A stretch of 64,000 nucleotides of DNA. It comes from Eledone cirrhosa. Lineage: Eukaryota. The stretch's first letter is position 1. The number at the start of each line of letters is the position of its first letter. The notes under the pieces are model-generated. The model saw only the letters and a list, made by a program, of their open reading frames with translations, searched no databases and was not told where the DNA came from. Positions 3,399 through 59,920 of the stretch are shown here, piece after piece. The translations under genes were made by a program, and so were the position numbers. The stretch is from the NCBI GenBank assembly GCA_964016885.1, contig OZ024745.1, forward strand, positions 100,378,001-100,442,000. Direction: 5' to 3'.

Positions 3399-3489
3399 GA
3401 GTAATGACGCGCGTTTCGCTATTAATCAGCTCAAGGTTCGTTCTGTATCGATCTAGTCCGACTCTGGAATCAAAAGCTCGTCGGACCTC
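3399..3489 (-). ncRNA. hammerhead-like motif with long stem II (Penelope pLTR remnant)
   Basis: Minus strand: CCGACGA-gct(long insert)agc-GAAA-CGCGCG-TC. Stem I is weak. Confidence 0.5.
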
Positions 3490-3807
3490 TGCTTTGTTCT
3501 ACACTGGAAACTTACTTATTGGAAACTACGCATCACTCTGGTGAACCTACAGTAACTGGACGTTACGTTCACAGTGTATATATATATATATATATATATA
3601 TATATATATATATATATATATATATATGTATATATATATATATATATATACCCAAACTACACATCTATTTGTAAACACACATCTATTTGTAAAACACACA
3701 TCTATTTGTAAAACACACATCTATTTGTATATGCGCTACAATTTATATACATGTAATGTTTATCGCAATTCGACGTTTTTGTTTATATATCTTGGTTTAT
3801 ATTTGAT

Positions 3808-3908
3808 AATTGTTTCTACTTTAGGCACAAGGCCAGCAATTACTCAGTGCATTACTGGTACTTTATTTTATCGACCCCATAAAGATGAAAGGCAAAGTCA
3901 ACCTCGGT
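3808..3908 (-). mobile_element. Nin-domain SINE, 3' half
   Basis: ggcacaaggccagcaat...ggtactttattttatcgacccc...gatgaaaggcaaagtcaacctcgg. Confidence 0.8.
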
Positions 3909-4018
3909 TTATATTTTGATAATAACAGCTAAACTAATCACTACAACTAAATTGACAAATTCACCCATCCGCAATTAAAAAATGATCCCACTGCCGCCTC
4001 TGTATGTATATATATATA

Positions 4019-5360
4019 TGTGTGTGTGTGTGTGTGTGTGTGTGTGTGTGTGTGTGTGTGTGTGTGTGTGTGTGTGTGCGTGTGTGTGTGCGTGTGTGTG
4101 TACGTGCGCGTGTGTGTACGTGCGCGTGTGTGTACGTGTGTGTGTACGTGTGTGTGTGTGTGTGGGTGTACGTGTGTGTGTACGTGTGTGTGTACGTGTG
4201 TGTGTGTACGTGTGTACGTGTGTGTGTGTGTGTGTGTATGTGTGTGTGATTCAATTCAAATATATCAAAATATTAAAGTTTTAAAAATGTTGATTCCGCT
4301 GTGTACGTGTGTGCATGCGTGTGTGTGTACGTGCGTGTGTGTGTACGTGCGTGTGTGTGTGTGTACGTGTGTGTGTGTGTGTGTGTGTGTGTGTGTACGT
4401 GTGTGTGTGTGTATGCGTGCGTGAGTGTGTGTGTACGTGTGTGTGTGTGTGTGTGTGTGTACGTGTGTATGTGTGTGTGTGTGTGTGTGTGTGTACGCGT
4501 GTGTGCGTGTGTGTGTGTGATTCAATTCAAATATATCAAAATATTAAAGTTTTAAAAATGTTGATTCCGCTGTGTACGTGTGTGCATGCGTGTGTGTGTA
4601 CGTGCGTGTGTGTACGTGCGTGTGTGTGTGTGTACGTGCGTGTGTGTGTGTGTGTACGTGTGTGTGTGTGTGTGGGTGTACGTGTGTGTGTACGTGTGTG
4701 TGTGTGTGTGTACGTGTGTATGTGTGTGTGTGTGTGTGTGTGTGTACGCGTGTGTGCGTGTGTGTGTGTGTGATTCAATTCAAATATATCAAAATATTAA
4801 AGTTTTAAAAATGTTGATTCCGCTGTGTACGTGTGTGCATGCGTGTGTGTGTACGTGCGTGTGTGTGTACGTGCGTGTGTGTGTGTGTACGTGTGTGTGT
4901 GTGTGTGGGTGTACGTGTGTGTGTACGTGTGTGTGTGTGTGTGTACGTGTGTATGTGTGTGTGTGTGTGTGTGTGTGTGTGTACGCGTGTGTGCGTGTGT
5001 GTGTGTGATTCAATTCAAATATATCAAAATATTAAAGTTTTAAAAATGTTGATTCCGCTGTGTACGTGTGTGCATGCGTGTGTGTGTACGTGCGTGTGTG
5101 TGTACGTGCGTGTGTGTGTGTGCACGTGTGTGTGTGTGTGTGTGTGTGTGTGTGTGTGTGTGTACGTGTGTGTATGCGTGCGTGAGTGTGTGTGTGTGTG
5201 TGTGTGTGTGCGTGTGTGTGTGTGATTCAATTCAAATATATCAAAATATTAAAGTTTTAAAAATGTTGATTCCGCTGTGTACGCGTGTGTTTGTATGTGT
5301 GCGTGTGAGCGTTGCATGTCACGCCGTTTCCGCGCGCTTGTGTACGAGTGTGTGTGTGTA
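4019..5360. repeat. composite tandem repeat: degenerate (TG)n with five identical ~54-bp AT-rich inserts
   Basis: gattcaattcaaatatatcaaaatattaaagttttaaaaatgttgattccgctg starts at 4248, 4519, 4772, 5007 and 5224. Confidence 0.95.
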
Positions 5361-56982: not shown

Positions 56983-57611
56983 GTATGTATGTATGTGTGT
57001 GTAGGTTTGCTGCTGCTGTTGCTTGATCATCCTTGGGTCATCCTTGATAAAATAAATCTATGATTAGCGTTCCTGCTGTGATCATACCACCTTGTCCCAT
57101 AGCAATGCTTTTTTTCTAAGACGGCAAGGGAGATTTGGTTGTCATTTTGGGAAGGTCATATATATGAGCGCACACACACACACGCATACACACACACACA
57201 CACACACACACACACACACACACACACACACACACACACACACACACACACACACACGCGCGCATAATAAATATATATTATATAACATACATATATATAC
57301 TTACACACACACATGTATAATGTAATATATATATATATATATATATATATATATATATATATATATATATATATATATGTATATATGTGTGTGTGCGTGT
57401 ATGTATTGGTTGTTATATTTCCATATCATTGCGATAAAAATCGTCGTATACGTCTGCATTTTGTAGGGAAAGTGAAAATCAATACGATTTACGAAGATTA
57501 GAGAAAAAGATCCACAGACAATGAAGAATAAGAAATTAGATAATGGCTGTCTGATGAGGTCATATAAATTACATAATTCATACTATTGAATGCGTTATAA
57601 CAGTAATGACA

Positions 57612-58418
57612 TCTGTATATATATAAAATTAAGTATTTGTATGTGTGTGTCTGTGTGTCTGTGTATTACCTATAGGGGCCTACATCTTACGACCGATTTT
57701 CATGAAAATTTACAGGCTCATAGATTACTCATCGGGGAGTGTTTTCTATATATCAGCGTATCGTTTTTTTTTTTTATTCCGGGGTCATTCTGCAGATAAA
57801 AATCGATAGGGGGGGGGGGGGGGGGGGGGTCACCTTTTTTTAGGTATCGAAAAATAAGATTTTTGGCTCTAACTCCCACATTTTGCACCGATTTCGTTCG
57901 AATTTTAAAGCAAAATAGAATCTTTCATTGCACATGTTGTAATGGCTTTATATTTTGCATATGTTGTTCAGGGACGGCGTGGCAGCCGCTTAAATATTCA
58001 AAAATACCACTTTTAGACTAAAATTTCTACTTTTTCGGCTCTAGCTCCCACATTAATCAACCCACTTTGTTCAAATTTTACACTACGCTAGATGTGATTA
58101 TTTCACGTCTTAAAGTGGCTTTACATTTTAGATTTTTTTTGTTCAGGGATGGCGTGGCAGCTGCTTAAATATTCGAAAATACCACCTTTTCGCTATAATT
58201 TCCGCCTTTTCGGACAAATATTTAATAAAATTGTGAATAAATGGACGAAAAAGACTGTATATAGCCGCCGCCGTGATCTCTCAAAATCGAAGAGCTGTGA
58301 TCTCTCAAAATCGAAGAAGTAGCAGCTCTTTCTAGGGCGACTTCTAATCTCCCAGCTACGAACTATCGAGTAAGGTTGCACCGAAGACCCTTCGGGAGAA
58401 CCCCAATTTGGCCGCTTG
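57612..58418 (+). mobile_element. probable non-autonomous Helitron
   Basis: A|TCTGTATATATATAAAA start, gtctgtgtgtctg repeat, accgattttcatgaaa motif, internal ~175-bp duplication, hairpin CCGAAG acc CTTCGG and CTTG|T end. Confidence 0.5.
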
Positions 58419-58774
58419 TATTCGCGATCGCATTTTTTCTTCCATTACTTAGTGTAAATAAATGATCAACAAAAATCGTTTGAATACAAAAATGTATGAG
58501 ACGATGTTGTATTTCATACCCCGGCATCTGTATATAGCTGAAGGAGTACTGACGATCAGTAAGTATAGTGAAATGCACCCATCCACTGCTTTTACCCCGA
58601 TAATGAGGTTGTTTGGATATGATTACAGTTTAAAGTACAGCGCGACTAAATGTGTGTTTATTATACGAGTCCATAGTGCGTTGTTTTGCCAGTATCGGTA
58701 GAGGGTCGGACGCCATGCTTTGCAACATCGAGTTACGGCCCTTCTATTTTTCTTTTCTGTGTGTAGATTCTATT

Positions 58775-59920
58775 TTTATGAGAGATAAAATCAGAGTATA
58801 TAGAGGAGCCAGAACCAAATGGGAAAAATGGTAAATAATGACACAAATGGGACCCGCCCTTGTTCAGGAGAACATTTTGGAATAGAATAGAAAGAACTAG
58901 GAATAAGGTTAATAGAATAAACTCATGGTATGATAGCAATAAATACCAGAGTGTAATGTTCCTCAATACAACCCCCAGAGGTGAATTAGCTTACAAATTT
59001 AGAAGGGCCCTAGATAAAGATAAACTTAAATATTAAGATAGTAGAAAGACCAGGTGCCTCCATAAAAACACTTATTAGCAATGCATACCCTTTTCAAAGA
59101 CCTCCCTGTATAGATAAGAAATACATAATCTGTAAACTAAGCCCCATATTAACTGTAAAACTAGAATGTAGTATATAGCATAAGATGTACTGAAGGACAA
59201 TGTAAAGATAAGAATATAGTGTACATAGGTGAGACAGCTCATAGTAGAGGAGAACGGTTAAATGAACACGGGCGAGAACTTCAAGATAAAAAAGAATCAT
59301 CAATACTCCACCAACATGCTAAAATAGAACATAAGGGCAAATTAGAGAACATAGAAATAAAAATAGAATCTACATACAGAAAAAGACGCAATGTAAGACA
59401 AATCACAGAGGCAATAAACATAAATGAACTCCAACCAAACTTAAATAGAAAACATGAATGGAATAGCAACATCACAACTTACAATTAAGGACAAAATGAA
59501 AACACACACACACGTAGAACAAACAACCAACCGGTAACATGTAAATAAACAAATAAATAAACAAATAAAAACACACACAGACACCCGGATGTAACACATG
59601 CGCAAACTAAGCACACAACACACACACAAACAAGATGGCGTAGGACAGAACAAAGGAGAGGCACAAAACAAAGAAAAGAATCTCCAGACGCCACAGAATG
59701 TGTGACGAAAGAACTTTGACAATATCTGAACAACCACCCGATTATGGAACCAACCAACCAACCGGAAATTTATAAATTCTTAAATTTATAAATTTAATTT
59801 ATAATAAATTGGAGTGAAAGCAACTGGAGAGTGTTTTTTCTTATTGGCAACATGACCCTCACAAAGCATAACAATATCAGTTTCAACACACGTTTTCAGA
59901 TAAAGGATCTTGCTAAACAA
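58775..59920 (+). mobile_element. 5'-truncated Penelope-like element (Naiad-like linker, GIY-YIG endonuclease, pLTR)
   Basis: PLFRRTFWNRIER..SWY...VMFLNTTPRGEL..KIVERPG..PF, then VYSIRC...YIGETAHSRGERLNEH...HQH...RQITEAINI...PNLNRKHEW. Confidence 0.85.

What the first reader, a model, noticed from the sequence alone, without database searches (positions are those of the whole stretch)
3399..59920. Dispersed hammerhead-ribozyme islands hidden in (TA)n tracts
Short unique islands inside TA microsatellites repeatedly fit CUGANGA-stem II-GAAA-stem III-UH: 3399-3489, 6858-6923, 10912-10954, 14252-14285, 35146-35185, 35674-35734, 35873-35933 and 52583-52664, with weaker cases at 19297, 20497 and 57547. 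Stem III is usually a short palindrome (CGCGCG, TATATA, CCGG, CTAATTAG). Minimal hammerheads of this type are known from Penelope pLTRs and retrozymes and are proposed to act as dimers. At least five unrelated sequence families in 64 kb suggests an unannotated population of non-autonomous ribozyme-bearing retroelements associated with TA repeats; that last step is inference.
Basis: partly seen in the sequence, partly recalled or inferred. Interest (0 to 1): 0.75.

Follow-up and report, generated by a model that had tools for sequence, protein, structure and literature searches.

The report
Penelope retroelement ends in TA repeats
The self-cutting-RNA motifs are real, but most are the leftover tail ends of a known class of jumping genes (Penelope-like elements) that land in TA repeats; their back-to-back insertions almost always have one long and one short end, which likely means that both cut DNA ends start copying the same RNA.

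Summary
Observation largely confirmed: 6 canonical hammerheads in the window against 0.01 per shuffle; 5 of the 8 listed islands have the canonical core, 3 have family-wide variant cores (U3-A8, U4C). 19297/20497 is not a hammerhead family. Seven of the eight islands are 5'-truncated 3' ends (pLTRs) of protein-coding Penelope-like elements: genomic copies run upstream into RT/GIY-YIG genes (Hydra-type, Neptune-like, Nematis-like), once inside the window itself (58807-59485). Only 52583 belongs to a non-coding family (530-nt tandem unit). Hammerheads in pLTRs, (TA)n targeting, inverted 5' copies and tails are published, including an octopus Hydra element. What I did not find in print as a counted rule: every family has two fixed 3' ends, and 166 of 174 back-to-back insertions pair one long with one short end; 40 of 101 cannot be fold-backs; arms share rare variants (58 of 67 against 17%). 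Best model: twin priming at two start sites on one RNA. Cleavage and expression are untested. This scan reported the same system and rule before on other DNA of this genome.

The parts
3346..3496 (-). Family A: 3' end of an older Hydra-type PLE, hammerhead 3399-3489 with U4C core (CCGACGA), stem III CGCGCG, short end
   Evidence: upstream Hydra-type endonuclease in L223, 34-46% to intact ORFs (1 of 4 extended copies); 306 exact pattern matches
3487..3576 (+). Inverted tail of family A (long end), abutting (TA)n
6811..7003 (-). Family B2: 3' end of a young Hydra-type PLE, canonical hammerhead 6858-6923, stem III UAUAUA, short end
   Evidence: 41 best matches 100% identical; RT/EN ORF upstream in L300-L302, 3 of 3 fetched
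7005..7074 (+). Inverted tail of family B2 (long end)
10758..10972 (-). Family C: pLTR of a Nematis-like PLE, canonical core, stem III GAAC, short end
   Evidence: L158, L159 pLTR-ORF-pLTR, L168, L169; Pfam RVT_1 E 6e-4 and GIY-YIG E 9e-4, both below cut-off
11918..12127 (+). Family H: back-to-back short arm (11918-11979 -) and long arm (11991-12127 +) of a young Hydra-type PLE, truncated inside stem II so the 5' core is absent
   Evidence: full copies carry a U3-A8 core and an intact 786-aa frame in a 3543-bp tandem unit
12704..12756 (+). Isolated tail fragment of family A
14176..14318 (-). Family D: 3' end of a Neptune-like PLE, hammerhead 14252-14285 with U3-A8 core (UUGAAAA), stem III CCGG, short end
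   Evidence: 7541 exact matches to a 26-mer holding the core; RT/EN ORF about 1 kb upstream in L271, L272
35082..35252 (-). Family D: body 35082-35204 (-) with hammerhead 35146-35185 and inverted tail 35202-35252 (+)
35290..35377 (.). Family H fragment: inverted tail plus short piece of body
35622..35800 (-). Family B short arm with hammerhead 35674-35734
35801..36069 (+). Family B long arm with hammerhead 35873-35933 and 95-nt tail; 3' end of a Hydra-type PLE with a 1.1-kb AT-rich 3' UTR
   Evidence: L171, L162, L012
36588..36917 (+). Family G: short arm (36588-36677 -) and long arm (36676-36917 +), truncated 3' of the core; non-coding unit of about 2.7 kb
   Evidence: CUGAUGA in 23 of 23 longer copies
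52527..53097 (-). Family E: non-coding 530-nt unit plus 51 nt, canonical hammerhead 52583-52664, stem III CUAAUUAG; this copy has a 12-nt deletion and a change in stem II
53200..53569 (+).
   Evidence: (L161: intact 829-aa frame between pLTRs)
57545..57605 (+). Decayed copy of an old hammerhead family (J); parent element not traced
58807..59485 (+). Broken GIY-YIG endonuclease end of the family C element, directly upstream of the next part
   Evidence: tblastn 60-82% identity, E 2e-76
59601..59922 (+). Family C pLTR with most of its tail; 5' core decayed

Best explanation
The islands are 3' ends (pseudo-LTRs with a minimal hammerhead) of at least seven Penelope-like retrotransposon families and two non-coding families that insert the same way, and they are likely made when the element's RT-endonuclease cuts both strands of a (TA)n tract and uses both DNA ends as primers at two fixed internal sites of one RNA. 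Shown: the families, their link to RT/EN genes, (TA)n at the ends, two fixed 3' ends per family 60-146 nt apart, one long plus one short end per back-to-back insertion, shared variants between arms. Inferred: cutting by the GIY-YIG domain, a protein dimer holding the two primers, priming helped by 2-5 nt of AT sequence at each start site, joining of the two cDNA 3' ends, and mobilisation of E and G by Hydra-type proteins through a shared hairpin in the tail. The hammerhead probably trims tandem transcripts as an RNA dimer or with protein help, but it is likely not required for insertion.
For: RT/EN genes upstream of families A, B, B2, C, D, F, H. Hydra motifs DKT and CxCX5C, catalytic YRDD match PMC8557442 section 11. 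Ends next to (TA)n: 541 of 638 against 809 of 5000 random positions in the same loci. End pairing: 197 of 205 back-to-back insertions are long+short; 166 of 174 after dropping the 31 whose query already held both ends; independence allows at most 50%, binomial p 8e-40; true in all 9 families. In 40 of 101 such pairs from non-tandem families neither arm can be a copy of the other (15 tail-only long arms, 25 where the short arm reaches further 5'). Minor alleles shared between arms 58 of 67 against 541 of 3262 between insertions. Tail hairpin (RYTC, 3-4 bp, loop, 2-nt bulge, GARY) starts 8-18 nt after the short end in A, B, B2, F, H and in non-coding E and G, with a paired change in E; 0-6 of 3000 shuffled tails have it. 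PMC11167929 shows in vitro that a PLE protein cuts and extends both strands, starts at two internal sites that bound the tail, is predicted to be a dimer, and inserts RNA with a dead hammerhead. A double-hammerhead fold is within 0.6 (F), 2.6 (E) and 0 (H) kcal/mol of the dimer minimum.
Against: No cleavage, expression or insertion assay was run. 8 of 174 pairs break the rule as scored (by eye 2 are misread tails and 2 are larger palindromic duplications). Shared variants also follow from two RNAs of one source locus or from gene conversion; family G shares only 5 of 10, and the window's own G arms differ at two such sites. Family F supplies 34 of the 58 shared alleles. 61 of 101 pairs do not exclude fold-back, and tandem family E cannot be tested this way. 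Loci are best-scoring or first-listed copies within 1.5 kb flanks, not a random sample. Family A ends are TA-adjacent in only 23 of 82. PMC11167929 found no homology between target and start site and no strand difference in start site. For B, B2, D and G the full double hammerhead is not the predicted fold; B, B2, E, F, G lack G10.1-C11.1 as the pair closing stem II. The tail hairpin is absent from C and D and from the one B reference copy L002. Clade names rest on motifs, not on a tree.
Confidence: 0.62

Rival explanations
1. Same elements, but each arm is copied from its own RNA molecule; an asymmetric protein dimer makes one protomer use the long start and the other the short start.
For: Explains long+short pairing and arms that overlap over hundreds of bases without one polymerase displacing the other; G arms that differ at family-polymorphic sites.
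Against: Arms share minor alleles 58 of 67 against 17%, which needs both RNAs from one locus; tail-only long arms stop near the short start, as expected if a second primer sits on the same RNA (15 of 101).
Confidence: 0.2
2. Same elements, but the inverted arm arises by self-priming (fold-back), as proposed for rotifer Penelope elements, and the tail is lost from one arm when the intermediate is resolved.
For: PMC3846280 proposes self-priming from junction palindromes; PMC8557442 ascribed the tail to endonuclease-mediated resolution; 24 of 101 pairs have arms that start within 10 nt of each other and 19 have the long arm reaching further; shared variants fit.
Against: 40 of 101 pairs hold sequence in each arm that the other lacks, including the window copies at 3346, 6811, 35082 and 53200.
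Confidence: 0.1
3. One reading: the islands are a population of non-autonomous retrozymes that spread as small circular RNAs.
For: Holds for family E (530-nt unit, GC 35%, head-to-tail copies each with a hammerhead, longest ATG frame 53 aa) and possibly G; fits PMC7229834 and the 2026 preprint.
Against: 7 of 8 listed islands trace to coding elements. E also ends at two fixed sites 60 and 176 nt past the predicted cut, not at the cut.
Confidence: 0.07
4. The motifs are chance matches in AT-rich sequence.
For: True for 19297/20497; no Rfam match.
Against: 6 hits against 0.01 per shuffle; cores kept in 42 of 43, 33 of 35, 34 of 38, 25 of 30, 23 of 23 copies of B, C, E, F, G; same position 40-150 nt before the short end in unrelated families.
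Confidence: 0.01

Closest known systems
Hydra clade of C-terminal EN+ Penelope-like elements, incl. Hydra-1_Obim (Craig et al. 2021, PMC8557442; section 11, passages and supplement passages read)
   Same: DKT and CxCX5C motifs, YRDD, C-terminal CxxC and CxH, hammerhead in the pLTR, (TA)n target, inverted 5' copy, tail at one end (families A, B, B2, F, H).
   Different: Units are longer (3.5 kb or more against 'generally <3 kb'), tails are 80-99 nt against 30-40, RWK reads RWT or RWR, H has a U3-A8 core, A a U4C core; several young families with thousands of copies.
Minimal type I hammerheads of metazoan PLEs (Cervera and De la Pena 2014, PMC4209133; parts 1-2 of 4 read)
   Same: Short palindromic stem III, short stem I, mostly solo motifs from truncated PLEs, pairs on opposite strands 100-700 bp apart, U3-A8 variant (Schistosoma Cercyon).
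   Different: G10.1-C11.1 does not close stem II in B, B2, E, F, G; stem III palindromes are 4-8 nt; H has a stem III stable as a monomer.
Poseidon PAc of Anolis (Frangieh et al. 2024, PMC11167929; main text read)
   Same: Two internal start sites bounding the tail; both target strands extended; tail overlaps the ORF start (seen in C and H); hammerhead dispensable for insertion.
   Different: That paper does not relate the two starts to the two ends of one insertion; it reports no target homology, whereas here 2-5 nt of AT sequence follow every end for which the continuation was read.
Metazoan non-LTR retrozymes (PMC7229834, passages; bioRxiv 10.64898/2026.07.22.740005, parts 1-3 of 5)
   Same: Family E: non-coding, low GC, head-to-tail units each with a type I hammerhead; PLE mobilisation proposed.
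   Different: Minimal rather than canonical hammerhead, 530 nt, dispersed 1-2.5-mers with PLE-type inverted arms, two fixed ends and (TA)n flanks; no sequence match to a PLE ORF.
Twin priming of LINE-1 inversions
   Same: Both target ends prime cDNA on one RNA and give an inverted piece.
   Different: Here both starts are fixed internal sites, the arms often overlap as an inverted duplication, and the structure is routine, not an accident.

Membership tests
EN+ Penelope-like elements | One ORF with RT and GIY-YIG endonuclease upstream of the terminal repeat | tested here: met
   Intact frames for F (L161, 829 aa) and H (L221, L225, 786 aa); broken or partial for A, B, B2, C, D. Pfam is weak: RVT_1 and GIY-YIG below cut-off for C, no family for F, B; homologues of F carry PF26215 (13 of 17).
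EN+ Penelope-like elements | 5' truncation, partial tandems, inverted 5' copy, tail at one end | tested here: met
Hydra clade (A, B, B2, F, H) | DKT in place of DKG; CxCX5C linker | tested here: met
   DKT in F, H and B2 (L302); CxCX5C in F, H, B, B2-like. For A only the endonuclease was recovered.
Hydra clade (A, B, B2, F, H) | RWK motif, no GxKF | tested here: inconclusive
   RWT in F, RWR in H; no GxKF in either
Hydra clade (A, B, B2, F, H) | Insertion into (TA)n and hammerhead in the pLTR | tested here: met
   B 61/68, B2 58/59, F 51/52, H 128/135 ends; A only 23/82; cores
Hydra clade (A, B, B2, F, H) | Generally shorter than 3 kb | tested here: not met
   H unit 3543 bp; F has about 0.8 kb between ORF and pLTR. 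A described tendency, not a strict criterion.
Hydra / Neptune / Nematis clades | Placement in an RT phylogeny | not tested
   No reference PLE sequences were held as stored proteins; C was called Nematis-like and D Neptune-like by eye against the alignments in the supplement of PMC8557442 and by CX2-5CxxC and GxKF motifs.
Type I minimal hammerhead | CUGAnGA core, GAAA, UH cleavage site | tested here: met
   B, B2, C, E, F, G canonical; D and H U3-A8, a published active covariant; A U4C, a published weak variant; counts
Type I minimal hammerhead | G10.1-C11.1 closing stem II | tested here: inconclusive
   Present in A, C, D, H; replaced by mismatches or A-U in B, B2, E, F, G
Type I minimal hammerhead | Site-specific self-cleavage as monomer or dimer | not testable with these tools
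   Folding only
Non-LTR retrozyme (family E) | Non-coding tandem unit, hammerhead in each unit, GC below 45% | tested here: met
   L032, L034, L050; no PLE protein match, longest ATG frame 53 aa, GC 35%
Non-LTR retrozyme (family E) | Expressed as linear and circular monomer RNA | not testable with these tools
   No RNA holder listed
Type-SGC permuted hammerhead (PMC10085705) | Order cleavage block, GAAA block, CUGAnGA block | tested here: not met
   Families A-H all read core, GAAA, cleavage site in type I order; checked by eye, no descriptor scan

The most novel reading that the evidence does not exclude
Penelope-like elements integrate by obligate asymmetric twin priming: an RT-EN dimer cuts both strands of (TA)n and starts cDNA at two fixed sites of one RNA, one per target end, guided in the Hydra clade by a small bulged hairpin in the tail that non-coding retrozymes have copied. 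This one mechanism would explain the tail, the head-to-head inverted copy and retrozyme mobilisation across three PLE clades.
Probability: 0.5. Interest if true: 0.68.

Novelty: new member of a known kind. Interest (0 to 1): 0.42.

Why it matters
The ribozyme islands themselves are ordinary PLE ends. Their value is as a large natural record of PLE integration, a step that PMC11167929 leaves open. The long+short rule holds in nine families from three clades and turns the 'optional tail' into a sharp prediction that an existing in vitro assay can test. Family E gives direct structural evidence that a retrozyme-like non-coding RNA is inserted by PLE machinery, which the retrozyme papers propose from co-occurrence and sequence similarity. 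High-copy families with U3-A8 and U4C cores bear on whether the hammerhead is needed at all. For annotation, many short 'unknown' islands in TA tracts of this genome are PLE fragments.

Tried and rejected
Rfam: nothing at gathering score; E-value scans returned only microRNA and snoRNA noise from simple repeats. The repeat finder was swamped by (TA)n. Pfam did not recognise the Hydra-type ORFs. 19297/20497 rejected. My first view that B and D were non-coding was dropped once longer copies were fetched. No parent ORF was found for G (L273-L275, L279) or E (L034, L037, L050) by tblastn with 7 PLE proteins; J was not extended. Empty-site alleles were not examined, so whether insertion lengthens (TA)n is open. 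No structure or complex prediction was run. Literature: 'Penelope'+'twin priming'+'inverted' gave 2 unrelated papers. The library lacks most subscription papers, so older Penelope mechanism papers and the dimer-cleavage paper on PLE hammerheads (recalled) were not seen; supplements of the 2026 preprint and of PMC11167929 were not read and may bear on the claim that the pairing rule is not in print.
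Full report
Setting. The window is G000:C5:100378001-100442000 of a 3.0-Gb animal genome. An octopus is my inference from size, repeat content and the likeness of the proteins to Hydra-1_Obim; it is not a tool result. The window holds 258 (TA)6+ tracts, RT-bearing LINE remnants and short islands between TA tracts.

Noticed in passing
window:21586-23952: Five to six copies of a 443-446-bp unit, each separated by (CATA)n, next to an RT-bearing LINE remnant (24484-27398); the same sequence appears beside microsatellites in other loci (L006, L194). 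No Rfam family. May be the end of a microsatellite-targeting R4/Dong-type element (recalled lead).
   Followed up: partly
window:47363-52448: Several broken RT and endonuclease-type frames on the minus strand ending at a (TTA)n tract at 52393-52452; RVT_1 E 1e-23 for 49998-51395. Looks like an R4/Dong-type LINE by recall.
   Followed up: partly
window:41864-46977: Two-ORF LINE with an uninterrupted 1204-aa frame (Exo_endo_phos, RVT_1, zf-RVT), L1/Tx1-like by recall; a 70% identical broken relative lies at 31324-34671.
   Followed up: partly
window:744-1905, 7199-7393, 17112-17301, 18847-19032, 39937-40141, 63265-63466 and others: A roughly 190-bp dispersed repeat in about 15 copies, SINE-like, some as inverted pairs.
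   Followed up: no
window:60582-60626, 61611-61655, 62511-62555: A 35-45-bp piece of the family C tail copied three times, identical, inside the expanded (TA)n field: the TA field has grown by block duplication after the insertion.
   Followed up: partly
window:12893-13026: TA-flanked island with a stem like the tail hairpin (CTC-TGCA, loop, TGCA-TT-GAG); probably the tail of a further family.
   Followed up: no
family H, L141-L155: Fifteen best-matching copies all stop at nearly the same place inside the stem II loop, with a different A/T-rich joint each time: a strong RT stop or a fixed RNA 5' end. The set is biased by the query.
   Followed up: partly
L026:620-1100, L032 flank: Further hammerhead families beside the ones studied, one directly after a PLE endonuclease end.
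   Followed up: no
G000:C3:253039000-253044500 and C3:252664500-252669800: The same compound family G insertion with the same layout at two places 375 kb apart (L274, L275): a segmental duplication or an assembly duplicate.
   Followed up: no
window:19200-19343 and 20481-20623: Local inverted duplication, 90% identical, single copy in the genome.
   Followed up: yes
window:4019-5289: 235-bp higher-order repeat: an identical 105-bp island repeated five times inside (TG)n.
   Followed up: no
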